From: Pocillopora damicornis
Lineage: Eukaryota
Direction: 5' to 3'
NCBI RefSeq assembly: GCF_003704095.1
Contig: NW_020845410.1
Span: 1,302,001 to 1,366,000 of the forward strand
Length of the DNA: 64,000 nucleotides
The notes below the pieces were generated by a model. That model was not told where the DNA came from and did not search any database. It saw only the letters and a list, made by a program, of their open reading frames with translations. This document shows, one piece after another, positions 3,643-54,329 of the stretch. Each line of letters begins with the position of its first letter. The stretch's first letter is position 1. The translations under genes and the position numbers were made by a program.

Positions 3643-4686
3643 ATGTACAACGTATCGGAAAAGAACACAAGCCAAAGCAACAGTTTTTATTATGTGCCAG
3701 CAATTTTACCTTCCCAGGCAGCTGGCATTGCATTTTGCGTCGCATTTTTCTGCGTTTTAATCTTCATTGTAGTCGGAAACGGTACCACCATTGTGCTTTT
3801 TGCATTTAACAAGACACAACGCAAGAAAACTTTACTTCTGGTCGTTAACCTGGCTATTGCTGATTTCATGTTAGGGGCTGTATCTTTACCTCTGTTCATT
3901 ACTTACTTCGTTGGGAATTATTATCAACTATGGTTGGTCCAGTTCAGGAATCTGCGAGTAGTCTTTTTCTATATATTCGTAGATTTAGCTCTCTCGCAAG
4001 CCTCGTTCCTCGCGGTGATTTTCGTATCTTGTGAGAGATTTTACGCCGTAAACTTTCCATTTAAGCACCGAACGTTGTCCTCGCGAGCATACTGGTTAGT
4101 CATTTTAACGGTGTGGATACTGGCCTTCCTAATTGCAGCGATAGGGACATTATTGAGTTACTTTGTTTCATTCAGAGCCACTGTGACTTTTTGGGTTTGT
4201 GTTGCTCTGACTCAGATACTCATCGTATGCGTTTGTACTATCGGTACGTGGAGAAAGTCTCACGAAAAAAATGTCGCATCGCAACAGCAAAACAGAGCCG
4301 CGAAAAACAAACGCTTAACAAAAACGTTGCTGTTTGTATCATTTGTTGAACTGCTAACCTGGTTGCCGTTGATTACACTCGACTGTTTAACCCTTTCAGG
4401 TGTTGGTCAAGCATATTTCGACTACCGAACTTTTCAATTCGTCGTAAACGTTCTTAATTTCTCGGGATCCTTTGTCAACCCCATCGTCTATGTATTAAGG
4501 ATTCCGGAAATCAGACAAGCGCTGAGTTTGTGCTTCAACAGAAGGGAAAACGTATCTAGCAGGAAACGGACTGAAACGACAAGTAGCGAGATGTCAGTTT
4601 CGACGCCAGTAAAAGAGTTTGGAATATTACCAAGCTATCCTAGTCGACTTCAAGTGGCCTCTCAAGTTTTTGATACGCGATTTTAA
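3643..4686 (+). CDS. Intronless class A (rhodopsin-like) GPCR, 347 aa
   Basis: 7 hydrophobic segments; GN (TM1), LAIAD (TM2), CERF (DRY-equivalent), WLP (TM6), NPIVY (TM7); ends DTRF. Confidence 0.95.
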   Translation: MYNVSEKNTSQSNSFYYVPAILPSQAAGIAFCVAFFCVLIFIVVGNGTTIVLFAFNKTQRKKTLLLVVNLAIADFMLGAVSLPLFITYFVGNYYQLWLVQFRNLRVVFFYIFVDLALSQASFLAVIFVSCERFYAVNFPFKHRTLSSRAYWLVILTVWILAFLIAAIGTLLSYFVSFRATVTFWVCVALTQILIVCVCTIGTWRKSHEKNVASQQQNRAAKNKRLTKTLLFVSFVELLTWLPLITLDCLTLSGVGQAYFDYRTFQFVVNVLNFSGSFVNPIVYVLRIPEIRQALSLCFNRRENVSSRKRTETTSSEMSVSTPVKEFGILPSYPSRLQVASQVFDTRF

Positions 4687-6095
4687 TTATGTGCAGCATA
4701 AGAGCTATTACTGATGTTGATCAACCGGCGTGCGTATTTACATAAAATGATATAACAATTATTTTCTCAAGAATTACCCAGCAGAATTGAAACAATCAAT
4801 AAATGTGTGAACTAAAATGTACTTTAAACATTTCGTTTGGAGTCAATCCCGTTTCAATTTACGACAGTGACATTTTTGAAAGAGACTTGGTAAAGTAAGG
4901 TAGTTGGACTTAACTTTCTGCAGTCTTTATCATTGCAGATCAAAATAACAGCCACTGAGTCTCACCCTATTGTACATCGGTATTGTACAGCCCATGAAAT
5001 TTTCTTGCCGTAAATGTAATATATCAAAATATCAGAAAAGTATTGTTATTGTAAAACGGGCTTTTTGCGATCACTCTAAATTTTTGCACCACTTTAGGTC
5101 TTGGGCTACGGGAAATTTGAGGATTTTGTGATCTTATTTTGCGTGGGACGGCCCGAAGACGAACAAAGGTTAAAAACACAAATGAAGAACTATTCGTCTA
5201 TTCATTTTCTCTTTTTTTGTTACATTCTCGTTGCCGCTGCCGTCATGGTTTTCTTAAATTCCCAAGTATAGCTGGAGGCTGACACACTTGACTTCATCCC
5301 CCTAGGCATGCGCATTACAAGTGTCTAATTATCCAACCAAAAATACCAAAAAGTATGCAATGACGTCAATAGTTTGAAAAGCTCTGTTTTCGGTGAGCGT
5401 TTTACCTATATTAGTGAGAACAGTAGAATCCAACCAAAAGGATAAACTCGCTTTTTCATATCTCTCCGGCGTGGTGTGAACGGGCTCTTAGGTTGATCCT
5501 CCAGCTTGTCTGTATATTTCTTTAGTCCTGAGGTACTTTGAAGATTGTTATATCTTTGACTCTATTGTTAGGACTGTGTCGTTTTAACCACATATCTCCT
5601 CAGCGTGTTCCTGATAGGATTTTTTTTCTGAGATGAATTAAAAATCGTTCGCTTATTCGAACTGTTAAATAATCTCTCAAACAACCCTTCCAAAGCTGCT
5701 CACTAATAACCAACGACACTTCTAAGTTAAGTCATAATTCTGATTAAATCATTTGCATAAGTTTAGCCTAAATTTTCCTAATTTACCTAAAAACTTGAAA
5801 GATCTGAGTTTTACTCAGTTGCCATCCTCTTACTGCTTTTCCGTTGTTGTTAAAAAATTGATCTCAATAGTTTGCCACATTCAGTGAGATTAAAATTGAA
5901 GTTGGTAATTGTAGTTCTGGTTAATCAGCTGCTTCCTTTGTGCCTGAAAATATAAAAAGCACTCGCGCTACGTAAACAGAAACCCACGACAGAATATTGT
6001 GGGCAGGAAATGGTTATAAATGTCATAATAGTTAAAAATATTTATTTCAGCTCATCCCAAAGGAAGCCTTTGGAGTGACAATGTTACTATGTGGT

Positions 6096-6319
6096 AGGAG
6101 ATGAACTTAATTCGTTTGTCTTCGTTTGTCTCACGATAGAGTCACTTTTGATGTTGACAATAGAGTCACTTATTTTGATGTTGATGTTGAATCGACCTCA
6201 TCGCCTGATGAAGACTAGCAGTATCGCAGTCGAAACGTCGCGATCGGCGTCAAAAGTGTCTCTATCGTAAAACAAACGAATAAAGTTCATTTCCTATCTT
6301 ACACCACGATGAACAATAC
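6096..6319 (+). mobile_element. Fold-back Penelope-type non-autonomous insertion (family A) with hammerhead motif
   Basis: Flanking 10-bp direct repeat ACTATGTGGT (6086-6095, 6320-6329); 6097-6155 is an imperfect inverted copy of about 6245-6294; similar to the 29.6-kb element. Confidence 0.8.
6200..6244 (+). ncRNA. Minimal type I hammerhead ribozyme with intact core
   Basis: ATCGC-CTGATGA-A-GACT(agcagtatcgc)AGTC-GAAA-C-GTC^GCGAT; stem I ATCGC/GCGAT, stem II GACT/AGTC, palindromic ACGT in place of stem III; predicted cleavage after C6239. Confidence 0.85.
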
Positions 6320-6439
6320 ACTATGTGGTGTTTTGAAATTGTGTTTATCTTGAACGTAGAGATATCAATTATCAAAAATAATCTACAGAGAAAAACTTCA
6401 AATTAGTGTGATATCTAATGAAAAGTCCGGCACGTGTGT

Positions 6440-6760
6440 TAAAACCAATTCCAATTCGGTTGCCTTCTTAGGCTGGGTAATCAACATGACCGATAACCCC
6501 CTCAACACATGTGTCTGCAGAGAAAAAACCAACAAAAAGCTTCTACTCCATTATCAGAGCCATGTTGACAATAGATATAAACGATCGCTAATAACAACTA
6601 TGCTTGATCGCACCAACCGCTTGTAATCCTCACCGGATCTTTTCTCGGATCTGAAAACAATGTTTCTGAAACTGAAACACTCTGAGAAATTTATTGATTC
6701 TAATTTTAAGAGATTCCACGCTTCCCAAGACCAGAACCAAAATCGAATTGAGCAAATCTG
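6440..6760 (+). mobile_element. Decayed Penelope-like element reverse transcriptase (C-terminal/thumb) fragment
   Basis: Translation ..VAFLGWVI..VCREKTN..LLHYQSHVDNRYKRSLITTMLDRTNRL*SSPDLF..LKTMFLKLKHSEKFIDS resembles the PLE RT pattern (PFL..VYRKPT..HY.SH....K..L..R...S..L....YP); internal stop. Confidence 0.75.
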
Positions 6761-7290: not shown

Positions 7291-7813
7291 CTAAACTGTC
7301 GTTGTGTACAATTTGGTATGCATCGGATCTCGTTGACGAGATGTCATTTCATGTCTGTAATGAGTCATTGAGTGCCGAAGCCTATACTTTCTTCTCTTAT
7401 TAAGCAGATTATTCATAGCTGGTTGTCCTCGGAAACAAGAACGTTTCAGAGCCTGCCGAAACTCGGCAATTCTTAATACATAAACCACTGGACTAATAAA
7501 AGAATTGGAGTAGTTGAAAAGGTTTAGCAAATGATAAACGGTTTGTCGTAGATGAAAAAACCAGAACTGTACTGCGTTAGCAATAATCAAGGGCAACCAC
7601 GCCATCAAAGCCAGGCAAGATACAAATAACAAGGTCTTTGTTAAGCGCGTATTTCTGTTTGTTTCTGAGTCTCTGTTTAGTTGCGGTGGTGAGGCACCCT
7701 CTCCATGAAACTTTATCAAAATGCCAATGTTGCAACCACATATTATACACATGAGAATAAAAGCGTATGGCACCCAAAAATACATAACATACTCGTGCAG
7801 CTGCAAGACATAC
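7291..7813 (-). CDS. Class A GPCR, 3' half (TM5 to C-terminus); 5' part lost in N-gap
   Basis: RLTKTLLFVS..AWLP..NSFISPVVYVLRIAEFRQAL matches array paralogs; ORF runs into gap 7814-7913. Confidence 0.9.
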
Positions 7814-7913
7814 NNNNNNNNNNNNNNNNNNNNNNNNNNNNNNNNNNNNNNNNNNNNNNNNNNNNNNNNNNNNNNNNNNNNNNNNNNNNNNNNNNNNNNN
7901 NNNNNNNNNNNNN
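7814..7913. other. Assembly gap (100 N)
   Basis: Run of N. Confidence 1.
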
Positions 7914-8066
7914 ACCGTTTATCATTTGCTAAACCTTTTCAACTACTCCAATTCTTTTATCAATCCAGTGGTTTATGTATTAAGAATTGCCGAGTTTCGT
8001 CAGGCTCTGACAATTTCTTATTTCCGAAGACAACCAGCTATGAACAATCCGCCATTACAGACATGA
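7914..8066 (+). CDS. Class A GPCR 3' end (TM7 and truncated tail), close paralog of 7291-7813
   Basis: TVYHLLNLFNYSNSFINPVVYVLRIAEFRQAL..MNNPPLQT*; a 41-bp deletion relative to the paralog leaves HYRHEMTSRQRDPMDSKLYTTTV* out of frame (to 8124). Confidence 0.85.
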   Translation, partial: TVYHLLNLFNYSNSFINPVVYVLRIAEFRQALTISYFRRQPAMNNPPLQT

Positions 8067-9166
8067 AATGACATCTCGTCAACGAGATCCAATGGATTCC
8101 AAATTGTACACAACGACAGTTTAGCATAATGATACCGATTATAATAATGATGTTGGTCCATGTGATGACAACAACACATCATTTATTTATGTAGCTGCAT
8201 AACATTCAATAACGGTCAAGAAATGAATTACATTCTTACCGAGGCATGATTCATCCACGGCTTCAGTTTGGAGACTTTAAAATTAATCTAAACAGTCTGG
8301 TAACACCTTGCCGCTTATGTTCCTTGATATCTATTCAACTTTGTGTAATTTTATTCTCAGTAAACTGATTAGCATACCTAACAACTACATCAGGTTAACG
8401 TTTGTCACCGGAGGCTAGTGAACATGTAGATAAGATGAAAAAACGTATGTCATCATGACTTGTCTGCTGATGTGTCATTCGAGAAAAATAAGCAAACAAA
8501 CCGGCAGCCGGTTCGTCAAGTCAAGACTAGTGTCTTAGAAATCCCAATAATTGCCTGTTAAGTTTGCTCATTTGTTGTAAAAAGGACTTTCCTCAGCTAA
8601 ACGTGCATTTGAATCGTTCTATAATACCAGTAGAAAATACAAAAATTATCCATCGAATCATATCCACTTCCTCAAAATTGAAGTACAAAAAATATAGGAA
8701 TCGGTTGAAGATATTAATAAATTTGGCATACACTCACCACCACTTTACTTTTGTAGACGTACTTTTAAGCCTCCCTTGTAAAATGAAACTTGATGTTAGA
8801 TAGTCATAATTAATGACGACAAAACGGCGCTGTGGAGGCAATGTGGCATTGCCCAGCAATTTAATTTTGGAGCTTATTTTAAGATAAGTTTATGAACACG
8901 GAACATGGAAATGGCTATCTCACATCAAAAGTAAACTTAAACAGGTAATTGACATCGGAAGAAAACCTATTGGCCAAAGGAAGGCGACAGATGTGCTAAC
9001 TACTCAGACAAAGACTTCCTTTTAGTGGACTTGTGTACATATCGAAAAACACCAAGTTCAAAAGTGGAAAGAAGATCGCTCACATTATCTGAAGACTCAT
9101 CAGATAAATAGATTATATCGGAGTTGATAATTAGTACATTGGCCACCGAAAAGGGTTTCACCCGAA

Positions 9167-9200
9167 GCTTACGTTTCGGGTGTTAACCAATCGTCAGAGC
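9167..9200 (-). ncRNA. Minimal hammerhead motif (family B), core intact, stem II weakened
   Basis: Reverse strand: GCT-CTGACGA-TTGGT(taac)ACCC-GAAA-C-GTA^AGC; neighbouring 9110-9165 resembles the arm of the 20-kb element. Confidence 0.65.
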
Positions 9201-9404
9201 GAAAGGTATATAAATTCGCTGAAATTACGACGACGTAAGGTTCCAAACAAGACCATCCTTAGAACTGCGTCAGTTTCCCTATACCACTCCTCTGATGAAA
9301 AAAAGATCGTTCGGTCATGCAAGAAAAAACAAGAAGAAAAATGAAAACAAAACAAAACTCACGGTGGACCTAATGAATTTCTAATCAGTTGATGTATAGG
9401 GAAA

Positions 9405-11278: not shown

Positions 11279-11378
11279 NNNNNNNNNNNNNNNNNNNNNN
11301 NNNNNNNNNNNNNNNNNNNNNNNNNNNNNNNNNNNNNNNNNNNNNNNNNNNNNNNNNNNNNNNNNNNNNNNNNNNNNN
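11279..11378. other. Assembly gap (100 N)
   Basis: Run of N. Confidence 1.
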
Positions 11379-13852: not shown

Positions 13853-15050
13853 TTACAATTTGGTATCCATTACATCTTGTTTAAACATCGGTTCATGGCT
13901 AAAATCGGTTTTTTCTTTCCTTTCATTCCTACTCTTAGCGAGGGTTGCGTTTATAGCTGGCTCTCCTCTGAAACAACAATGAGCCAATGTTCGTCGACGA
14001 AACTCGGGAATTCTTAATGCATAAAGTACTGGATTGACAATTGTTAATCATGTAATAAAATTTCATTCGTACGCGAAAAAAACAGACAATTATCGAGAAG
14101 TTTAATGTGACTAAAGGCAGCCAAGCCAGCAAAGTAATGCCAGATACAAATAACAGTACTATTGTCTTTGTCAAGCGCTTGTTTTGCAAGTCTCTGTTTT
14201 GCTGATGTAAAGCGGCGACACTTCTACTTTGAAACTTTTTCCAAATACCAATGTTACATCCACGTGTCATCAAAATGAGAATCAAAGTATATGGCCCCCG
14301 AATTAACGTGGTGTATTTGTATGAAAGAAGGAGGTTTGATCCAGTGCATATCGCAGAGATAAGACGAGCGAGCATCCATGCTGTAAAAATAACAATACGG
14401 TATACTCGCGTTGATTATGTTCGATGCTTAAACGGCTAGTGTACGGCGTTAAATCTCTCACAGGGTATAAAGGCTGCGAGAAAAAAGGATCAACGATCAT
14501 GTGGGAATTATGGAGAGGTATGTTGCTCTCAAAGCTTTTCGTTAATGTCCATAACTGGAGATTTAATCCAGCTTGGTAAGTGTACATACATGAGGTAAAC
14601 CCACAGCCCCCAACAACAGGTCAGTAAATACCATGTCAAAGGGCCACGAAACAAATGTTTCCTGCAAATATTGACGTTCTTCGCAAAAAGAATAATCACG
14701 TGTAGGTTTCCGGCGACAACTACAACTAATGTTAACATAAAAAACATCACAGAATGCTATGCCGTCTGCCTGTGAGGGAGCATCCTTTGATGAATTAAGA
14801 TCCTCTCTGATACTCATGTCAGCAGCAGATGCATTAACGGCTGTGAATATATGAAAGTCAAATATTTGAACTGCGGATTAAGACGTGAATATGAAAGTGA
14901 TCTTCGCAGTAATAAACACTACTTGAATAGCAGTGAAGATAAGACCTAAAAAAAATTCAGGCTGGTACGAAATTTGTACTGTATCGTTCAAATTTGCAGG
15001 ATATATACCGCAAATTTATATATTTGCGGGATTTGAACTGTATTGTTCAT
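13853..15050 (-). pseudogene. Full-length GPCR pseudogene
   Basis: Homology is split over four ORF-track frames (frameshifts, stops, TM3 and TM7 deletions); ends ..DVMDTKL*; the MNNT start (15050) is separated from the body by a SINE-like insertion. Confidence 0.9.
14836..14979 (-). mobile_element. SINE-like repeat fragment inserted in the first codons of the GPCR pseudogene
   Basis: Interrupts M-N-N-T / S-A-A-D; reverse strand ..GTACCAGCCTGAATTTTTTTTAGGTCTTATCTTCACTGCT.. resembles a tRNA-SINE body downstream of the B-box. Confidence 0.6.
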
Positions 15051-28713: not shown

Positions 28714-31438
28714 TCATGTATCTCCTTTCTTGGTTACCCTACTTGTGTCTAGTGTCTTATCAGTGTCACCTATGTCTGGTGTCTCTGTTCTACTGCTTAA
28801 ATTCAGACTCTTACTTATTGCGCCTGTATCCTTGTTCCCTTTAACTTCAAAGTCAATGGTGTCTTTTGCCCCCGTCAAATCAGGCAAGTCCACTGTGCCT
28901 CCTGCATTACTTTCTTTGAATTCTTGAGCACCTCTTCCAAACAACCCACTCTGACTATAAGGTGTTTCAGTGACTGTCCTCTCTGTATCAACTGTCTTAT
29001 CTTTTAATCCAGGACAATTTTCCTGACTACTCTTTGCCTCTGCATTTATAGATGCCACAGGCAGAATTGAGTTTCTAACTGATTTATCATCAGTACATTG
29101 GTCTTTAATGCTTTCCTCTCCCAGAAGTTTATAGGACGTTGATTGACTTATGCCACCTTGACATGTGCCTTCTTCAGCACTTTGGTGAATATTTTTTTCT
29201 CCAGTTGCCTGTTCTTGGTTTGAAGGCTGATTGTCTGATTTAAACTCCTGGCTTTCTGTCAATGTGTGAACTGAAGAAGCATCTTCATTCTCAATACTAG
29301 CACCAAGTTCTTCCTCCAGTTTTTGTATACCAGCTGAGACAGCTGACAAATGGAGGAAATAACACAACCCTTGATTAATGGTAATGAGAAATTATGAAGC
29401 ATGGCAGTCATAGCATACAGAGACTCCAATTTCCAAATGATAAAACCCTGGTGTTTTCCTTTAAAACCACAACAGTATTCTGGTCTTCCAGTTGAGCAGT
29501 TAAACACTTTGGAGAATGTTGTAATGATTTGTATCTTGACCCTTTAACCCAAAGAGTGATTGTCACTAAATTTCTCCTAACAGTTTCACCTCTAATTTCA
29601 TAAAAAAAGGTTGTGGTTATTCATCGTGGCGAATAACAATAAAAGCTAAGTTTTTTTGTTTGTCTCATGATGTATTCACGTGCGATGTAGATTGCGACAT
29701 TTCGACTGCATACTGCTAGTCTTCTTAAGGTGATGAGGTCGACTGGTCATGTGTGATCTTATAAAGCATGATGCTCTGCTGTGATTAGTTGGTTTTTTTC
29801 AACAATCAGAGCTGTTCAGTTAAAAACAACTAATCACAGCAGAGCTTCATGCTTTATAAGATTACACATGACCAGTCAACCTCATCGCCTTAAGACTAGC
29901 AGTGTGCAGTTGAAATGTCACAATCTACATCACACGTGACTACATAGTGAGACAAACAAAAAAACTTAGCTTTTATAGTTTCACCTCTGAATCAAATATA
30001 AAGTGCTTTGAATAAGGAAATGAACACTAACTTAAGAGGTTCTTGATTGTTTGACAAATTCTCTTTGTTAATACCATGTGATAAGAGAATATGTTTCTGA
30101 TATAAGGATGCAAAGATTGAAGGCAAATATTCATGTCATCATATGTTATAAGCATAGACTTTGGGTAATGAGCTGGGAGAAGCTTCAGTACTTACCTTCA
30201 AAAGCAGATCCATACTGCTTTGTCAGTTTAGTCTTTAATGTTCTAATAGAAAAAAAAAACAATCACATAAGCAATCAATAATTTATCTTTGACTGTGTTA
30301 TCAGAAACTCATTTCAGGATATGACTCATTTCTCAAGAGCACAAAATTACATCAAGTGCAGTGTAAGAACAACATAAAAATACCAAACTGTTACATAAAG
30401 GACAATGAAAAGGAATTTTGTAAAGTTAAACATGACATTAATAACATGAAATCAATTTGTTCAAATCAAAGGCTCTACATTTTTCACCTTATTCTTCTAA
30501 AGATTGAATCCAAATCTTTTTTCATGTCTAATAACATCTTGGTATGACCCTTCAGTTGATTGTTTAAGTTCAGGAATCTGGCTGCAGACAAATCATTGAA
30601 TTTTCCAAATTTGGCATTCGTCTTCTCAAAGTTTGCTAGCCTGTCAAACAGTAAAAGGAATATCAGAGATTACAGCAATAGTGTTTAAATTTGGCATTCA
30701 TCTTCGCAAAGTCTGAGAACCTATCAAACAGTGATAGGAATATCTAAGATTACAACTATGGTGTTAATTTTCAACAAGTGAAAGACCACGCACACAAGGA
30801 AGAAAAAGCCAGGCTCTTATTTTTCCATTTCTACATGTTTATGTCACTGTATAGAAAATATCAAATTGCAGGCCAAAATACGGCAGAATTTTGTACACCA
30901 AATATTTTCTGTGTTAATGTACAACGAACACCCAACTGACAATAGCTGTCTAACAGCTGTAAAGAAATCGCACACGTTTACTTAAACAATAATAGCAACA
31001 ACATCGGCCAGAATTTTATAAAATTTGAAGGATCGTGGAATTTTCAAAACAATAATACAAAATACGGTAAAATTTCCGCACAGCCTCATCCTACATTATG
31101 CATTCAGTTCTTGGATAGAGAAAACAATGACAAAAACAGTACATTGCCATTGGGAAAACAGATTTGTTTTACAATAGTATGGGGCTGTGCGGAAATTTTA
31201 CCCAAAATACTAACGTTTTTCTCTGTTGCTTAAGAATTGCTTCGACGTCCCCCTTCTTTATCATCCCTTCCATTCTGTGGTAGAAGCTGTCAGATGCCAT
31301 GAACTGATCAGTTCTTCTCTCTGATTCGCGTTCCGCATGTGATGCCGTGGATGGCGATACTTTCCCATCGTTACCACCTCCCCTTTTTTCTGAGTGTCTG
31401 AAAGTATCGCCAATTCTTGAAGTAGAGCTGTACGCCAT
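28714..31438 (-). CDS. KXD1: KxDL motif-containing protein 1 (BORC subunit); exons 31438(or 31300)-31215, 30640-30488, 30242-30196, 29342-28714
   Basis: Spliced product ..[68 protein letters not shown].. matches the KxDL domain; GT-AG introns in frame. Confidence 0.9.
29536..30121. mobile_element. MITE-like repeat in KXD1 intron 3, interrupted by the family-A insertion
   Basis: Ends TTGACCCTTTA.. and ..GCAAAGATTGAA; an oppositely oriented relative lies at about 35087-35285. Confidence 0.55.
29594..29976 (-). mobile_element. Fold-back Penelope-type insertion (family A) with two opposed degenerate hammerhead motifs
   Basis: 12-bp direct repeat AGTTTCACCTCT (29582-29593, 29977-29988); about 155-bp inverted arms (29639-29799, 29822-29976); CCTCATC(A/G)C-CTTAAGA-AGACTAGCAGT..GCAGTC-GAAATGTC; tail CCACGATGAA shared with the 6.1-kb element. 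Confidence 0.88.
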
Positions 31439-31838: not shown

Positions 31839-34800
31839 ATGAATCGAAAAAGGACGAGGCTGTCTCTCTCCCGGAGAAAGAAGACAAAAATCAGTGAAGT
31901 GGAAGACATGAAGAGTGAGTTGTGCGGCCGAGATGGAAACTCTGAAATTGTAGTTTTTCCTCCAGATGAAAATCCAGTTATTGAATCAAAGCAGAACCAC
32001 GCTGAGGCAAAAGATTCTCAAAGCAACAAAAAAATCAAGTCATCAGGCAAAACAAAAGAAACAACAGGAGTTAATTGCATGGATAACAATAATGGGAACC
32101 CAGCAAATAAGAGAATAGCGACGTGGTTTCTGAAACCATGCAGTCCAAAATCAGTTTCTTGTCCATTGTGTGGAAAACTTGCAATTCTTTCCAAGATAAA
32201 CCAACATTTAGACAGCAACTGTAAACTACACTTAGCTCTACTTATAGCTGAAGATTGTACAGCTAATGAACTTGCTGGAGCACACAGTTGTTCTCCATGC
32301 AGTTCAGACTACTCAGCAAAAGAGGTACTAAAGCCAAGTTACCAGAATGCAGACAGGAAAGAAAATAGGTCAGAATGTTACAAACCCTGTGTGAAAAGTC
32401 CAGAATCAAGGGATGAAAATTTAGCCCTTGAGGGTGTTTCTTCTATCTTAAAACCTGCAAATGAAAGAAATGATTTTATCCCCTTGAAGAAAATGTCACG
32501 GAAGATGGATAGTAAGAAACAAAGTCCTTTTGCCATGGATGAAGAAAGCTACATTGAATCCAGTAGTGATTGTGATCAAGGTACTGCATGTCAGGAACCA
32601 TGTGATACATTTGCAACTCTTTCTAGGGAAGGAAAATCAATTCACAATGATGGCAATGATCCAAATGAAGTTCAAGCATCTAACATAAACTTAACAGAAG
32701 ATGTTTCTGAAAATTCCAAGGAGAAAGAAGACAAAGACCATGAACCATACTATTTAGCTAATTTTAAGCTTGTAGTGAACAATGTCTTGTCAAACAAGGA
32801 TGACAGGCAGTTGTTCAATGAAGAAGATAATGGTATAATTGATGCTTTCAATGTCATGTCTTCAGAGGAGCAGAAGCTGTATATCCGTCTTTTCCAGCGT
32901 AAACATGGATGGTTTAGGTGCAGCAAACTGGAATATCTGAGGATCAGTAACAATCTGACACCAATATTAAAGTCTCTTGCAGAGAAAGGTTAAATCTCTT
33001 ATTTTAAATGTTTTTGTGAAGTCAGAATAACATGGTGAATGGCAGGAGTATGAGGCCTGGGTGGAATGGGGGGGGGGGGCTGGGTTGCAGAAAAGTGTCA
33101 ATTGGAATAAGAGTGGGAAGAGAGGCTGACAAACAAACACAGGACCTCAGGGTACATGTATGCTTTTATGGTAAAAGTTGTCCCCAAGGGGCTTCAAAGT
33201 GTTGACATTGGCTTCAATTTGAATTAGCTCCCTTCTACAGTACCTCTCAGTTATGCTGTAGGGTCCATTGACTTACTCAATACCCTTTCCAGCAAAATGT
33301 TAACCACAAGCTCACAAAATTGTGGTATGCATCAGGAAAACCTCTGTCCAAATCAGGCACCTACATGTAACTTATAGATACTTTCATTCATGGGAACGAG
33401 TATGATCCCTTTGTCCTGTTATCCACTATTGTTACCCACTCTGTAACATTACTGAGTACAGATTCCAATAAGCTCTTTTCAGTCCCATGAATTGAAATAA
33501 AATAATGAGTTCAAAAGAAACATGTAGAGAATTACCATCCCCCTTTTTCCTTATAGGTTTTTTAGAAGACGAAAGTCATCTCAGAGATCTCCGGGAGGCA
33601 TTAAATCTTTCAGCAGCTCCAGACTTAAAACTTTTGGTCAAAACTCTTCATATTTCATCAAAATCTGTTGGCCAGAAGGGGGGAACCAAGGAAGACACAA
33701 TAGAAATGATTGTTAACCATGCCGAGAACCAAAAGACACTCTTTGGAAGTTCTAAAGCTGTTGTTTTAAAGAGGTAAGAATTTGACTGTCAAATGAGAAT
33801 TCATTCAATAGTAGTTTGAACATTTACATGTTTGTGTAGTTTACTCAGGAGGTGTAGAGATGGCTAAGAGATAAATTTTTAGCAGCAAGCGGTGTGTTTC
33901 TGTCCATCGTTTTATTTGACTGTCCAGTGATATGATTGGTAATCACTCATGATAAATTACATGTACTAGTGTGCAGCAATAAAAGCCAAAGTATGTTAAC
34001 TCTATATGTAGTCTTTTTTTGAAGTTTTGTTTTGTCATTCATTTATTTTCTGTAGGGTTAAGCAAGCCCTTGGTTGTTGTGTGAGACTGGCAGCTTATCC
34101 CAAAGATGTGTTCAGCAGACTTCTTTTGTTGTTTAGTATGAATGTTATCCCAGATGATGAAGACTCCTCAAACAATGGACAGGCGCAGCAATTGTAAGAA
34201 TCTTTCACTATCTGATACCAGTTTTTGAGATTCATGAAGAAAATGGTGAGGGCTTGAAAAAGCTTTGCAATTTTATTACACAAAAATTTCACAGTTTTTA
34301 CTCACTGTAACTGGTCTAACTGATCTATAACAAATCTTAATGCCACACAAACCTGAATATACATGAATGTCACCAGTATTTATCAGTTGTGGCTCATTTT
34401 GATTACTTGCTGTTTTCCAATGCTCTACAATGTACATATACATCTGATTTTCAGGTCAACACTCTACCTTGCTAATATTGGTAAAGTTGTCTACCCAGCA
34501 TATGTGATTGACAGACCAACACCAGTTTTCCACTCTCGAGATAGCCTCATCCAATTCTCTGAAGCGTATCAGCATAAGTATGAGATGCTTGTAGCGCTTG
34601 AAAATAAGAACTTTGAACAAGCCTATATTTACTATCCAGAAGCTTCAAAGAAATTTGATGATATTCTGGCCAAGCTGAAAAATTGTTCAGAAATCTCTGC
34701 TGCACTACTCCCAGGCCACTTGCGATGCTTCACTGCTGAGTGGGCCATCACTAAGATGTGTTATTATGGAGTGGAACTGTTACAGAAATGGCGAAAGTAT

Positions 34801-37800
34801 GATGAGGCTGTCAATCAACTTGAAAGTCTGCTTCAACAAGACATATTTTGCTTTGATTCGCGTGGACGGTGGTATGATAGACTGGCACTGAATTTGCATC
34901 AGCACTTAAAACAACCTGAAAAGGTGAGTCCTCGTTAATTTTTTTCTTAAGTTTTGAAAGATTAAAGAAAGAAAAGTGAACTATGGCCAAAGACAATGTT
35001 TTTAATATATGATATAAATTTAAGGGTTGCATATCCATGGATGTGCCACCTGTTCATTTATCCAGGCTGATCTGTGACTTACCTTGAGACCCTTTACACT
35101 TTGATATCAGTACCTATATTCTCCACACTGTTCTCTATACATTTCTTACAGTACTAATGAAGAGAATGTGCTTAATAATCAAGAGCTCCCTGACCTGACA
35201 ATCCTTTCATAATGTTTGATTCAGCAGTTTTACTGTGAGAAGAAATACATGTAGATGCTAGTCACTCGATGGGGTCAAAGGCTAATATCAGAGTTTTGCT
35301 GTTTTACTCAAAGGCTATGCAGGTCATCCGGGAAGCCCTTCTAGACCCACATGTTCGGTTTGGGCGTCGTCTTGCCCTGATACAGAGAGCCAAGCGCATC
35401 CTCTCTTCCCCAGCATTTACTAAAGGGAAGAAGAAAAAATGTGAAGATTATGGAGACCTGGAGTTAATAGAACCAGACTCATCTAAGAGTGTAAGTCTTA
35501 GTTGTTACTTTAATTTTGTCGTTGGTTTTGATATTTAAAAATAAAATGGACTTGAGTTTGAGGTGGCTTGTTCAACAGTAGAATAGTTTATCTGTATTTC
35601 TTTTTACTCATCCCTGCAGATCACTATATCTGGGACAAGATGTGCAGAACTTGGAGTCTTCATTGCTCCTGAGATTGATCAAGATGGCCAAGTAATTGAT
35701 GGTACAACAACCTTCTGTGCAGTGGAGGAATATGCCTTGTCATATTATCGCCAGAAGGGATTTGACCAAGGAATCCATGGAGAAGGATCCACTTTCTCAT
35801 CACTTTACATCTTATACATGTGGGACATCATATTTGCAAGTGGAATTCCAGATGTTTTTCGAAGTCCATTCCAAGTATGAAACTTGCTGACTTTAAAATG
35901 TCCTGTGGTCATTTTCTGACATTTTTTGTGTACAGTGTAAAGCACTTTTAGTAATATTCACCACCATATTTTTACCAGGAAGAAAAGTCTGGAACAATTC
36001 CTTTAACATTATTATTTGCGAGGTTTTTATTTGCTCTGATTAGTGATTAATTAGTATCTGTTTGGTTTTTTTTTGAGGCTGCTCCCCTTGACTTCTGCTA
36101 TGATGCATTTTACGAAAGTCGCAAAGAAATTATTGACAAGAGGCTGGAGGAAATCTCAATAACGTCAGTTGAGGTAAATGTGATTGATAATGCATGAAAT
36201 CTTTCTTTGTGTTGTCTACATGTACACAAAACGTAATGATTATTATGTTAAGTGGTCAATCAAATATGGTCAGTTTAAGGCAAAAGATTTATTTACACCA
36301 AGTTTTTCGATATATGTATATTTTGTGACAGAAACTTCAGGACATTCTGTCCAAAGCTTGGAATGATTACGAAGGGCAGGTTTGTGCAGGAATAAGCTGG
36401 GATCGATTCACAAGTGTGGAGCAAGCAAAAGTAAGTGGGTGGTTTTGAGAAGTTTCGCATGTGAAATTACTTGTGTATTCCTTTTTAAGAATTTTTTAGT
36501 TGTTTAATTTGTTGTTGGGTGTTGGTTGGTCACATATGTGAATGGGAATACCTTCAAGTTGAACTAACGTTACGTCAGGTCCAGGGCATAAATGTTTGAC
36601 GATAAACATTGTAAAAATACACAATAACTTGTGGTTTTTCTTTCTGTAGCAACTCGTAGCCTGCCTGGGTGGTCAGATAATGTCTGGGATCTTCACTCGG
36701 TTTGCTCAAGGATACCGCTATTGTCGCGCTGGTATGCCTGATCTGGTCGTATGGAATTCATCCACTCTTGATTACATGGTAACTTAGTTCGTCTTTCAAA
36801 TAAACTGCTTTTGTTTGAGTATTGGAAGACCAGAAACAAAACCTGATTACACCGGCTCGGGTGAACGAAGGAGAACGTCACAGGATACCCAATAAGGACA
36901 CGAAAAGATTTCAAGCGTGACGAATGTTGCGAATAACAGCGACAATAACAGAGAAAGACGTCTTTCGTCTTGTCACGAGCGTGGAACAATAAAAAAAAAT
37001 TCTGAGTCCCCATGAATGAGGAATCGAACCTCAGACCTTCAGATTCATCTCTACCACTGAGCTACAGAGACTCCACGGTGAGCTAGGTCTATTACGAAGT
37101 TCATATGACACACGTCCTGCATACTGATAGGATCAGCAATGTCGATAGCGTCATGACGCATCGTAGCGCGGAATCCGAAGGTTTGAGGTTCGATTCCTTA
37201 TGAGGACTCAGAATTTTTTCTTTGTCCCACGCTCGTAACAAGACGATGGCTGATTTACGTTATCAACTCAGTTGATAACACTAAATTACCCTGTTATACT
37301 CTCCTACCGATGCAGCTCCACAGTTTCTTTAGAAACTTACCCTCTTTAATCACTTAGTTATGTTTGTTTGTAGCTCATGAATTTGATTTGTTTAGAAGGT
37401 GGTGCTATATCTCTATACCAATCACAGAGCGTAGTAAAGCAAAACCAAAACAATGACGAATCGCTTTCTTACAGAATAACAGCTATGGTGGTGATTTTTG
37501 TAAATTCTGTAAAGTTCATCTTGTCTCCAACTTACCCTAAGTGAGCGGAGATTATTTTTTTCCTTTGTCTTAACGTCAGATTTCTGAAGTTAAGGGTCCA
37601 GGGGACAAGCTTTCTACCAAGCAATTAATCTGGCTAGATGTTTTACAGTCCCTTGGAGCTAATGTCGAAGTCTGCTATGTGACTGGTATGTCTGTGCTTC
37701 CAAAACGATTTACATGAAGTCAAGTTATATGACAAATGACTGTCAAGCCAGAGGATCACCATCCCATGAGTAACTTTCGAGCAAAAGAATTGTTTGATAT

Positions 37801-41398: not shown

Positions 41399-42484
41399 AT
41401 GAAGTCTTCCACGTGTCCATTTACTGTGACTGCGGCTTCTTGTTTATTCCTATGTATTACTGTTTCTCTTTCCATGTTATGCATTTCACTTTGGCTCACA
41501 AGTCAAGGACTTACAAATTATGTAGAGTCCATGAAGTATAACCTCCAGAAAGAAGGTCAAATTGGCAAGCGTGGGTCTGCGCACACAACGGTGGGAACTT
41601 CATTTCGCAGACGAAGCGATCGAGACAAAACGGGCTCTGTTGACAGTCAGTTAATCGATGATGCATTCTCCGACTCTTGGCTTGAAGTACGTAAACATCG
41701 TACCCGTCTTCTAACACGAACAAAGTGTTTACAGGACTTGTTCCTCATAATAATCGTCTCTAGCTCTCCTGAAGCACATAAAAATCGAATGGTTATTCGA
41801 CATACTTGGGGAACGGATAACGCACTTCACCGGAAATGGAAGACGGTGTTTCTTATCGGCGAAGCTAGCAGTGTTGACATTTCGTATCGCATCTCGCGCG
41901 AAGCGCAGATATTTGGCGACATAATTCAAGGTGACTACCCTGAAACGTTTACAAATAAAGTGTTTAAGATTGAGTCTGGATTTGAATGGGCAGCAAAGTA
42001 CTGTAGCTTTAAATACTTGCTTAAGACAGATGATGACGTGTTCGTCAATACTCGCGGTCTCATCGAATTCCTCACCCAAACTGGCACGGCAAATACAGAC
42101 TTTTATTTTGGACATTTAATGCATGGAAACCCTGTTCTTCGTCATGGTTTCTATGGTGTTTCAGAAGAAGATCATCCTGAGAATACTTATAAAGACTACA
42201 TTTCTGGAGGCGGCTACGTGTTGTCAAGGGATCTGGTCTTGAAATTAATTCCAATGTTTGATGTTGTGAAACCGCTTAAAGTTGATGATGCATATATTGG
42301 AATCCTAGCGGCCGATTTGGGTGTTCAGCCAATCTCTAGTACAACGTTTTTGATGTATAACGATAATAAATCATGCAAGGATGACCCCAATATTTTGCTC
42401 ATTAGGCCAATTGATCACGATTGCATGGTCAAACTTTTCGACGATACACAGAAGAAACTACTCTCTCAGAGTACTACAAATTAG
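41399..42484 (+). CDS. GT31 beta-1,3-galactosyltransferase-like, single exon, type II membrane protein
   Basis: N-terminal TM; R..IRHTWG, DIIQGDY, KTDDDVFVN (DxD), GGGYVLS, DDAYIG; first ATG at 41399. Confidence 0.93.
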   Translation: MKSSTCPFTVTAASCLFLCITVSLSMLCISLWLTSQGLTNYVESMKYNLQKEGQIGKRGSAHTTVGTSFRRRSDRDKTGSVDSQLIDDAFSDSWLEVRKHRTRLLTRTKCLQDLFLIIIVSSSPEAHKNRMVIRHTWGTDNALHRKWKTVFLIGEASSVDISYRISREAQIFGDIIQGDYPETFTNKVFKIESGFEWAAKYCSFKYLLKTDDDVFVNTRGLIEFLTQTGTANTDFYFGHLMHGNPVLRHGFYGVSEEDHPENTYKDYISGGGYVLSRDLVLKLIPMFDVVKPLKVDDAYIGILAADLGVQPISSTTFLMYNDNKSCKDDPNILLIRPIDHDCMVKLFDDTQKKLLSQSTTN

Positions 42485-51400: not shown

Positions 51401-54329
51401 AAAAAGTTACTCTTTATGAAATTATGACTTCAATAGCAGGTAACGACGGTCAGGTTGATAATTAATCTGATAAAAAGGAGTAAGCACATATGCCGTGTGG
51501 CCCTTACCGCCGGAGGTCTTAAAACCAACGTAATTTACCTTCCCCCCGCCTGCCCCAGCCCTCTCAATTTATCGTCCAGCCTATCTTAAAGACGGCAGAT
51601 ACCAATTTATACTCTTTGGTGGAAGCACAGATAAAGTAAAGTGCCTTTTTCTAGAAACATAACACAATGACCAAGCCAAACTCCTACGACCTGGGCTGTT
51701 GGAACTGAACTCAAGCGCGCGCACCATCCGCCAGGCAGCCGCGGGCGAAAACTCGTTGAACGAGTTTTGCCTGAAAACGAGCCCTCCTTGCAAATTCTCT
51801 GAGATAATCGATATAACAATACTTGATTACAATTTAGATGAGAGTTTCCCACCTTCCGTATTCCTATTGACGTGGCAAATCCTGGAGCTGCACTGAGTCC
51901 TTTCTCGCGAGGAAACGACATTTCTCCTTGATTCGATATGTCTATCCTAACCCCAGCTTCCTCTGTGAAGGCTCCAATGTATTCGTCTTGCTCAATATTT
52001 AGCTCGAGGTTTAGTCCTGAAAGAAGAAGCTGTTCCATTTAAGCCATTTAAACGTAGTTTCTTAAGTCAACTTCTTTTCAATTGATGTTTTTTAGGAAAT
52101 GAAATTGTAAACTTCTCCAGTACAGATTATAACGGATTATTTTCATGCCATAGACAGTTATAACTATATGTGCTTAATTGGATATAATGACTAATTCAAT
52201 ATTTTTAAAATTCGCGTGATCGTTATCTTGAGTCTGCTGGCATTTGACTTCCTGGTCAGTGCAATTAGGGCCGAAAAATGTCGTTCGTTCTTAGTCACAT
52301 TGCTTAGCGAAATTACAGCCATGATGCATCTGGGATCGTGTCTGGGCTCTGTTTCTAGAGATTTCCCTCGGACCAGTCTTTAGAAATGCTCCCTAGTGCA
52401 TTTTACTCACGCGTAAGTAAAGGAATAAGAGCTCAGAGTTTTTCTGCCTTAAAATAATCAATATAAATTCAGTTAAACAGCTATCTTACCATGCGATGGG
52501 CCGGGCTTGTTAGACTTCAACACTGTAGCACTGTTTCCTGATTTATCTTTACCAGCGTTAAAAACATAACAGTTTCCGTACGTATAATGCCAATAGCTTG
52601 TCCAATAGGAACTCGCGAAATTTCTAGGAAACAAATACTCCGATAACAATGCAGATCAAGAAAATACGCTTTTTATTTGCTGCAGTGTGAATTGTTTAAT
52701 TTGTCAATTTGAGTTAATTTGTTAATTTGAGGTAATCTGTTAATTTGAGATACAATACAGCTAATATAACGCTCCAAAGGTCATTTTTTCATTTTCAGGT
52801 GATGCATTCGAACTGAATTTTAAGAATTCAGCCTTAGCCAGACAAGAGAGCAAAGAGAAACTAGTCATAGTAGCTTTTTGGGCAGATTTGTCCCACGAAC
52901 CCATACGGACAAAACGTGACTTTGAACAATTTGAATAAGAAAAGTTCTTCTTATTCTTCATTTGCAAATTTAATGGGAGACTTTAAACTTACCCACACGA
53001 GATTCCGCGGTATCTGCACGACAAGAAAAACTCTTTAAACTGGTGACCAAGGGGTTTCAGTGCTTCAACACCAGCCTCAGCCATTATCATTATCATTTGC
53101 TCCCTATTCTTAAAATCCTCATCCAGATCATCCGGGTTCTCAATTCCTTCCTCTTCCTCTTCGGAGAAGTCAAGGTTATTTGGACTATTGGACGAGGAGG
53201 GTTGGTTTACTGCTCTCTTCCCTCGTGTCGGTGGGTTAGAGCCTATAATGTTGATAATAATACTGATGATAATGATAATGAGATCGCAAAATACATCAAA
53301 CAAGAAGGGTCTAGAAATCAATATGAAAATACTAAACTTAAAATCGAAGCTTAAAAATTCGAGACGGAGCCCCGTTTACCATGAAAGTGGAACAGCGCAA
53401 AATGAGCGATGTCTGTTTATACCTCAAATTGCCATCCTGCGAACAATGCCCTCTATAATCTACACTTGTTGTAGGTGATTAGTTCAGGGCGCTGTAAAGT
53501 GATGTTATTATTAGTTTAGGGCACATATTTCTTACTGGTAGTCTCTGCTTGAATATCTTTCTTCAGCTCCTCAGGGAAATTTTCAATGTTACCAATTTTC
53601 ACAGCATTGAAGTTGCAAATTGTAATCACAGGAAAGTCAAGACTCTGGAAACATAACAAGAAGATGTTAAAAAATAGTGAACTTGGTGAAAAAGCGGTGC
53701 TAAAACGTTCAACACGTCGATTAAGTGAGCACCTCTCCAATATTAATCAACTAAAAATTGCAAAACAGAATGAAAAACTTTAAGTGCTAATCCTAAATAT
53801 TTTGTGAGTTTTTCATAACAGTTATGGTCTCCATTTTTACTCCTGACTTACTGTGAGTGAGAGTTTTGCCCCAAGAATACAACTCAATGATATGATAAGT
53901 GCATGAAGTTGGGCTTGCTCTCAATGATCACAAAGTCACTGCTTGCGTCTTCCGTGGAATTAAAAATTTAGAGCCCGGGTAAGAAAGAGATATACACACC
54001 GTTTCATGTTTTATCGAGACATGAGTGCTCAGCGGTCTTGCCTTATACGTATTAAACAGAGTGTTTATTTGCCATGAAGACATCGCCAATGCTGCAAGAA
54101 ATAACAACGTCCAGAATATTTTTCTTATTGTTTGTTTTGAGGCGATGATGCGCGGTGGACCGTGGCCAGACGTGTATTCACAATAGTCCAGAATCAAATG
54201 TCGTATAGAATACGTTTTGTCCTCATTATCTGTTATATCTTGGCTGACGTCTTCACCAGCTGCTTTCATTCCTCCTCTGACGGACATCTCAAAATCGTTT
54301 TGCCGTTGAAAAGGGTTTGTATTTTCCAT
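48476..54329 (-). CDS. DEG/ENaC channel subunit A; exons 54329-54000, 53644-53536, 53242-52993, 52623-52490, 52016-51853, 51383-51273, 50716-50599, 50088-50010, 49558-49501, 49319-49252, 48851-48767, 48664-48476
   Basis: TSGHG, FPVITICNFN, YGNCYVFN, GPSHGLNLEL, Cys-rich thumb ending CPPPC, FYEELNYE, TM2 SDLGGSLGLWIGMS; GT-AG introns in frame. Confidence 0.96.
49612..49981 (-). repeat. (GACT)n degenerate microsatellite in DEG/ENaC-A intron 8
   Basis: Visible directly in sequence. Confidence 0.95.
51597..51735 (-). mobile_element. Degenerate tRNA/CORE-like SINE
   Basis: Reverse strand ..CATTGTGTTATGTTTCTAG..GGCACTTTACT..TCCACC..AGTATAAATTGGTA resembles a CORE-type SINE centre. Confidence 0.5.

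What the first reader, a model, noticed from the sequence alone, without database searches (positions are those of the whole stretch)
6200..6244. Intact minimal hammerhead ribozyme
All core nucleotides are present (CUGAUGA, GAAA, GUC cleavage triplet), with a perfect 5-bp stem I and a 4-bp stem II. Stem III is reduced to the self-complementary ACGU, so activity would probably need a dimer of two transcripts. It lies in the 3' region between two convergent GPCR genes, about 1.5 kb downstream of the + strand GPCR stop, so it could cut a long 3' UTR or read-through RNA.
Basis: partly seen in the sequence, partly recalled or inferred. Interest (0 to 1): 0.7.

Follow-up and report, generated by a model that had tools for sequence, protein, structure and literature searches.

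The report
Leftover jumping-gene hammerhead ribozyme
The motif is a real minimal hammerhead sequence, but it is the end piece of a broken jumping gene (a Penelope-like retrotransposon), one of about 1,900 such motifs in this genome, and as a lone copy it likely does not cut RNA or control the neighbouring receptor genes, so it is ordinary.

Summary
6200-6244 has a complete type I hammerhead core, a 5-bp helix I, a helix II and a palindromic ACGU in place of helix III; a structure-aware scan finds it once in the window and in 0 of 60 shuffles. It lies in a 234-bp insertion flanked by a 10-bp target-site duplication: an inverted piece, then a 5'-truncated pseudo-LTR ending in the first codons of a Penelope-like ORF. 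Other genomic copies carry reverse-transcriptase and GIY-YIG frames directly upstream. A core pattern matches 1,873 places in this genome against 13 for the control, about one per 125 kb. Such ribozymes are published (PMC4209133): inactive alone, weak as dimers. This copy has no tandem partner, is no better conserved than its sisters (16 of 28 keep the core), and is predicted to misfold. Unstranded RNA contigs cross the site uncut and weakly hint that the + gene ends before it. Verdict: new member of a known kind, likely inert. This scan has noted the same kind in other genomes.

The parts
6200..6244 (+). Minimal type I hammerhead motif of the pLTR; predicted cut 6239/6240
6190..6319 (+). 5'-truncated pseudo-LTR piece of a Penelope-like element (family positions 1 to about 130), 8 differences in 129 nt from the column majority of 29 other copies
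6309..6317 (+). First three codons (MNN) of the element's ORF; the insertion stops here, part-way through the usual tail
   Evidence: most other copies read on as MNNKHIFYY-like; full-length relative P0014 begins MNNHNLFYE
6095..6157 (-). Inverted piece of the same pLTR (family positions 55-107) with a 10-nt internal duplication; lacks the ribozyme and the tail
6158..6189 (-). Short local re-duplications of the inverted piece at the junction
6086..6095 (.). Left copy of 10-bp target-site duplication
   Evidence: chance about 2e-4 with slack at both ends
6320..6329 (.). Right copy of 10-bp target-site duplication
3643..4686 (+). Flanking intronless rhodopsin-family GPCR ORF, 347 aa (context only)
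   Evidence: PF00001, E 8.8e-24
7291..7813 (-). 3' half of flanking convergent GPCR, cut by an assembly gap at 7814-7913 (context only)
   Evidence: (PF00001, E 3.9e-9)

Best explanation
The motif is the minimal hammerhead in the end repeat (pLTR) of a Penelope-like retrotransposon, left in a 234-bp truncated insertion between two receptor genes, where it is likely inert. In an intact element, two such ribozymes in one tandem pLTR-ORF-pLTR transcript would swap strands so that the two ACGU palindromes form a shared 4-bp helix III and each core can cut after GUC (published model, inferred for this family). This copy was likely pasted by target-primed reverse transcription from both cut strands: one cDNA started in the ORF's first codons and ran through the uncut ribozyme, the other started about 40 nt upstream of the usual 3' end and gave the inverted piece (inferred from the geometry). 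Alone, it has no helix III and is predicted to pair its core with itself. Its core is intact because the copy has drifted only about 6%.
For: Dispersed family: 85 matches among 40 scored of 382 candidates, with sharp common limits. RT and GIY-YIG-type frames lie directly upstream in other copies; copy L008 matches residues 322-801 of an 837-aa relative at 68-72% and L075 matches residues 25-831, followed by the pLTR. Copies end in the ORF's first codons. 3' ends are bimodal, 41 of 63 pieces at positions 140-150 and 16 of 63 at 103-112: the PLE tail. 12 of 29 other copies have an inverted element piece upstream. 10-bp TSD here. 1,873 core matches against 13 control. The core is intact in 16 of 28 sisters; core differences 5.8% against 7.3% elsewhere, p=0.32. 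The monomer is predicted to pair core with core; the open form is 1.6-2.3% of the ensemble, 0.7% with the inverted arm. PMC4209133 reports no cleavage for a single motif and low cleavage for dimers. 25 of 30 copies picked on the part 3' of the cut run across the cut site, in line with uncut RNA being the template in PMC11167929.
Against: No assay was run, so 'inert' is inferred. The insertion is present in every run whose locus-specific contigs were listed, under three organism labels, and no empty site was seen, so it may be fixed. This copy has 1 change in the 56 nt around the ribozyme and 7 in the next 46. Without CpG sites the core is slightly better kept across copies (3.8% against 6.9%, p=0.044). 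RNA-library contigs cover the site. Pfam support for the family's own frames is thin: RT below cut-off for L008, above it only for the sibling L064, and no GIY-YIG hit. No copy with two pLTRs flanking an ORF was found in the 2 regions fetched for it.
Confidence: 0.9

Rival explanations
1. Co-opted cutter: the remnant is transcribed as part of a long 3' UTR or read-through RNA of the + strand GPCR and is cut after dimerising in trans with another family transcript, which limits read-through into the convergent gene.
For: Same strand as the + gene. Single RNA-library contigs run from its ORF to more than 900 nt past the stop (X1 4032-5591, X5 4421-5634). Other family copies are abundant in RNA libraries. 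No empty allele was seen. 1 change in 56 nt around the ribozyme.
Against: The strand-swapped dimer is predicted 6.2 kcal/mol less stable than two monomers (the model ignores Mg2+ and core contacts). Published dimers are slow even in cis. A locus-specific contig bridges the cut site with 45 and 437 letters (X1). Contigs of X1, X2 and X8 stop at 5971, 5983 and 5954, near variant poly(A) signals at 5949-5951, and a - strand AATAAA lies at 6046-6041: a weak hint that the + RNA ends before the motif and that the - gene's RNA crosses it antisense, where no core exists. X6 covers that gap and speaks against the hint.
Confidence: 0.04
2. The insertion matters, if at all, as structure or signal rather than as catalyst: the inverted arms (6095-6157 with 6245-6296) form a long hairpin, or its AATAAA at 6279 serves as a + strand poly(A) signal.
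For: A long hairpin is predicted. 7 of 8 private changes fall in the paired arm (P about 0.009, post hoc). AATAAA at 6279.
Against: The private changes weaken the hairpin rather than keep it. Inverted arms are routine in this family (12 of 29). There are no stranded or 3'-end data.
Confidence: 0.04
3. Monomer of a non-LTR retrozyme (non-coding tandem repeat that makes RNA circles).
For: Type I hammerhead, dispersed, non-coding at this site; corals hold retrozymes (PMC7229834).
Against: No tandem unit here. The sequence is colinear with the 3' end of an RT-endonuclease ORF and carries its start codons. The coral retrozymes in that paper have canonical hammerheads in 220-240 bp tandem repeats.
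Confidence: 0.02

Closest known systems
Minimal hammerheads (min-HHR) in pLTRs of metazoan Penelope-like elements (Cervera and De la Pena 2014, PMC4209133; parts 1-2 of 4 read)
   Same: Type I core, extra base between positions 9 and 10.1, G10.1-C11.1 pair, palindromic 15.2-16.2, 4-5 bp helix I, long helix II, location in the pLTR; mostly single motifs tied to truncated PLEs; reported from cnidarians.
   Different: Nothing of kind. This family's helix II has a bulged A, which that paper describes for the Drosophila virilis variant. Whether this exact family is in its supplementary figures was not checked.
Penelope/Poseidon clade of endonuclease-bearing PLEs (PMC8557442, PMC3846280, PMC11167929; passages read)
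   Same: RT followed by C-terminal GIY-YIG, ORF of about 840 aa, pLTR holding the first codons, 30-40 nt optional tail, inverted 5' piece, 8-10 bp TSD, no Cys-rich linker in the 837-aa relative.
   Different: All copies seen in this genome are truncated or broken. This copy's 3' end falls mid-tail (position about 130; 1 of 63 pieces). Clade not tested by a tree.
Minimal type I hammerheads of the coral Acropora millepora (PMC7229834; passages read)
   Same: More than 6000 type I motifs in 16 families in a stony-coral genome, of which up to 1508 are canonical and the rest PLE-like minimal ones.
   Different: That paper tested the canonical tandem retrozymes; this motif is a lone minimal one.

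Membership tests
PLE minimal hammerhead (min-HHR) | Conserved core C3 U4 G5 A6 N7 G8 A9, G12 A13 A14 A15.1, U16.1 H17 | tested here: met
PLE minimal hammerhead (min-HHR) | Extra nucleotide between A9 and 10.1; G10.1-C11.1 pair | tested here: met
   A6212; G6213-C6231; feature from PMC4209133
PLE minimal hammerhead (min-HHR) | Palindromic 15.2-16.2 in place of helix III; helix I of 4-5 bp; long helix II | tested here: met
   CG at 6236-6237; 5 bp; 6 bp here, 7 bp in 28 of 29 sisters at that column
PLE minimal hammerhead (min-HHR) | Lies in the pLTR of a PLE | tested here: met
PLE minimal hammerhead (min-HHR) | Self-cleavage as a dimer | not testable with these tools
   needs an in vitro assay
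EN+ Penelope-like element | ORF with RT and C-terminal GIY-YIG endonuclease | tested here: met
   Other copies align along an 837-aa RT protein. RT passes Pfam's cut-off in sibling L064 only. The GIY-YIG motif was read by eye; PF01541 is on 4 of 120 listed homologues.
EN+ Penelope-like element | pLTR includes the ORF start; optional 30-40 nt tail | tested here: met
EN+ Penelope-like element | 5' truncation, inverted 5' piece, short TSD | tested here: met
EN+ Penelope-like element | Partial-tandem pLTR-ORF-pLTR copy in the genome | tested here: inconclusive
   2 long regions fetched (L075, L076); each gave only the 3' pLTR; L076 holds assembly gaps
Penelope/Poseidon clade | No extra Zn-finger-like motif between RT and EN | tested here: met
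   No Cys in that linker of P0014, read by eye; criterion from PMC8557442
Penelope/Poseidon clade | Placement in an RT tree | not tested
   no tree built
Non-LTR retrozyme | Tandem units, each with a hammerhead | tested here: not met
   single forward copy; next family copies at 29.6-30.0 kb are broken
Rfam hammerhead families | Covariance-model match | tested here: not met
   no hammerhead hit at gathering score or E<=10

The most novel reading that the evidence does not exclude
A lone, possibly fixed Penelope pLTR ribozyme has been co-opted between two convergent coral GPCR genes: read-through RNA of the + gene is cut at 6239/6240 after pairing in trans with transcripts of the same repeat family, so transposon expression would tune a host gene's 3' end.
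Probability: 0.03. Interest if true: 0.65.

Novelty: new member of a known kind. Interest (0 to 1): 0.1.

Why it matters
As it stands it matters little: it adds one family to the published link between minimal hammerheads and Penelope-like elements, and it shows that a lone intact core near a gene is the expected background in this genome (about one per 125 kb). One small data point for an open question: most copies run through the cut site, which fits copying from uncut RNA. If trans-dimer cutting of a host transcript were shown, the many solo motifs in animal genomes would become candidate regulators.

Tried and rejected
Rfam: no hammerhead hit; three unrelated hits at E 4-9 taken as chance. 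A loose core pattern did not clearly beat shuffles. Pfam on the family's broken frames gave only a sub-threshold RT hit, and nothing for GIY-YIG. Empty insertion site: no joint skipping 6096-6329 in 8 runs; contigs show presence, not absence. No RNA cover at 7909-8400 in 4 of 4 runs was not used as a control for DNA carry-over, because it follows an assembly gap and no DNA run was laid there. Summed depth over the motif is 300-400 times the flank in X15, X18 and X19; not used as a copy number. Cut-site footprint (lead from e1-8654857): 2 of 30 copies begin at positions 49-53, 3 at 56-61 and 25 further 5'; no peak. ADAR editing as the source of the A-to-G cluster at 6246-6249 was set aside: 6247 reads A in locus-specific contigs of several runs, so the changes did not arise together. 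The dimer energy for 6190-6256 was dropped because the flanks were left unpaired. The script counted 14 of 29 inverted pieces; 2 (L012, L025) were unrelated self-inversions and were dropped, leaving 12. Lunse et al. (dimer cleavage of such ribozymes) is not held and is known here only from a reference list and a review passage. No supplements were opened; those of PMC4209133 and PMC7229834 may list this family.

Full report
Observation. The motif is at the stated place: helix I 6200-6204/6240-6244, CUGAUGA 6205-6211, an extra A at 6212, helix II (4 bp, bulged A6217, 2 bp), GAAA 6232-6235, CG, then UC with the predicted cut at 6239/6240. A scan that demands core, helix II, a palindrome in place of helix III and helix I found this one site in the window and none in 60 shuffles. 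A loose pattern alone was not clearly above chance, and Rfam did not detect it. The flanking ORFs are rhodopsin-family GPCRs that converge, with stops 1514 and 1047 nt away; the - strand one is cut by an assembly gap at 7814-7913.

What it belongs to. A search of the own genome with 6000-6450 gave 85 matches among 40 scored of 382 candidates; the best are confined to 6190-6321, at 83-92% identity. Other copies extend 5' for variable lengths into frames with RT motifs and a GIY-YIG-type motif read by eye. Pfam support on these broken frames is thin: RT below cut-off for L008, above it for the sibling L064, and no GIY-YIG hit. A homologue search with one frame gave 902 proteins; the best named ones are from stony corals, and 4 of the 120 listed carry PF01541. 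An 837-aa relative, P0014, aligns to copy L008 over residues 322-801 at 68-72% and to L075 over residues 25-831, directly followed by the ribozyme-bearing repeat. Most copies end in codons reading MNNKHIFYY or close, against MNNHNLFYE at the start of P0014. The repeat is therefore the pseudo-LTR, which holds the ORF's first codons as described in PMC3846280 (passages). The host is likely a stony coral (inference from these homologues).

Anatomy of this insertion. An exact 10-bp direct repeat at 6086-6095 and 6320-6329 brackets it (chance about 2e-4). Inside are an inverted piece (6095-6157, family positions 107 to 55), short re-duplications (6158-6189) and the forward piece (6190-6319), which stops after MNN. 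Across 63 family pieces that reach past position 60, 41 end at 140-150, 16 at 103-112 and 6 elsewhere (some pieces share a contig and are not independent). That 40-nt step matches the optional tail, which PMC11167929 traces to two reverse-transcription start sites (passages). 12 of 29 other copies have an inverted piece upstream, as PMC8557442 describes for PLEs (passages). No copy with two pLTRs around an ORF turned up in the 2 regions fetched.

How common. An exact 35-nt family pattern matches 11 places. A general core pattern matches 1,873 places against 13 for the reversed control, about 0.5 per 64-kb window. PMC4209133 (parts 1-2 of 4 read) describes these motifs, the extra base, the G-C pair and the palindrome, says most are single and probably tied to truncated PLEs, and reports no cleavage by a single motif and low cleavage by dimers and trimers. 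PMC7229834 (passages) counts thousands in another coral. The bioRxiv paper 10.64898/2026.07.22.740005 (part 1 of 5 read) derives tandem retrozymes from pLTRs; this site is not tandem.

Is this copy special? It differs from the column majority of 29 other copies at 8 of 129 positions (6.2%; the others average 7.2%). 16 of 28 of them keep the 12-nt core, and core columns vary 5.8% against 7.3% elsewhere (p=0.32; without CpG sites 3.8% against 6.9%, p=0.044). With stems also required, 13 of 31 fully covered pieces pass, this one included. These copies were picked by likeness to this one, which inflates both counts. An intact core is thus common. Against my reading: only 1 of the 8 changes lies in 6190-6245 and 7 lie in the arm that pairs with the inverted piece (P about 0.009, post hoc), and no empty allele was seen in 8 runs under several organism labels.

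Likely mechanism and activity. Shown: the sequence, the insertion geometry and the link to a PLE ORF. Inferred from the literature: in a tandem element transcript two motifs exchange strands and build a shared 4-bp helix III. Predicted here: the monomer pairs GAUG with CGUC across its own core; the open form is 1.6-2.3% of the ensemble and 0.7% with the inverted arm, where helix I drops to 27%. The swapped dimer of the 45-mer is 6.2 kcal/mol worse than two monomers. These models ignore Mg2+ and core contacts. No partner lies in cis: the other family copies in the window, at 29648-29967, have broken cores, and the 10 kb upstream of the window hold none. Of 30 copies chosen on the part 3' of the cut, 25 run across it and 2 begin at it, which fits copying of uncut RNA.

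Transcription. Only unstranded contigs were available. In poly(A) libraries single contigs run from the + ORF to more than 900 nt past its stop, and a locus-specific contig of X1 bridges the cut site with 45 and 437 letters. So an uncut form, the antisense strand or carried-over DNA is present. Contigs of X1, X2 (one study) and X8 (another) stop at 5971, 5983 and 5954, near variant poly(A) signals at 5949-5951, while X15 and X18 (type not on record, presumed DNA) go on to 6150 and X19 to 6085; a - strand AATAAA lies at 6046-6041. This weakly hints that the + mRNA ends before the motif and that the - gene's 3' UTR crosses it antisense, where there is no core. X6 covers 5937-6197 and speaks against the hint.

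Verdict. A genuine minimal hammerhead, a new member of a published kind, in a truncated Penelope-like insertion, likely inert here (0.9). Co-option as a cutter of GPCR read-through RNA is not excluded but has no positive evidence (0.03-0.04). Earlier notes of this scan describe the same kind in other genomes; they served as leads only. Interest 0.1.

Noticed in passing
window 9120-9205 (-): Decayed copy of a second minimal-hammerhead repeat family (196 candidates), the commonest type among the listed matches; triplet and helices are damaged here. Its link to a PLE ORF was not shown.
   Followed up: partly
window 29648-29967: Head-to-head inverted pair of copies from a sibling subfamily of the same element, both with broken cores.
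   Followed up: partly
window 6246-6249: Three private A-to-G changes; two add pairs that lengthen helix I in the predicted fold. 6247 is polymorphic.
   Followed up: partly
window 6245-6296: 7 of this copy's 8 private changes lie in the arm that can pair with the inverted piece, which itself stays close to the family. Unexplained.
   Followed up: partly
window 7814-7913 and 11279-11378: Two 100-N assembly gaps. The first cuts the - strand GPCR; RNA contigs go on past 7813 into sequence absent from the window.
   Followed up: partly
window 3643-26783: Cluster of at least seven intronless GPCR paralogues at 43-62% identity to one member, with a frameshifted copy at 13919-14835 and a fragment at 7920-8048.
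   Followed up: no
window 5943-6174: One contig of run X5 joins 5943 to 6174, skipping 230 bases: a deletion allele or an artefact (29 letters on the short side).
   Followed up: no
L036:3342-3396: A third minimal-hammerhead family with different helices and the same core; it recurs in the list.
   Followed up: no
window 31839-34938, 41399-42484, 51607-54329: ORFs that look like a FAN1-type nuclease, a beta-1,3-glycosyltransferase and DEG/ENaC channel exons (names recalled, from no call; ORFs).
   Followed up: no
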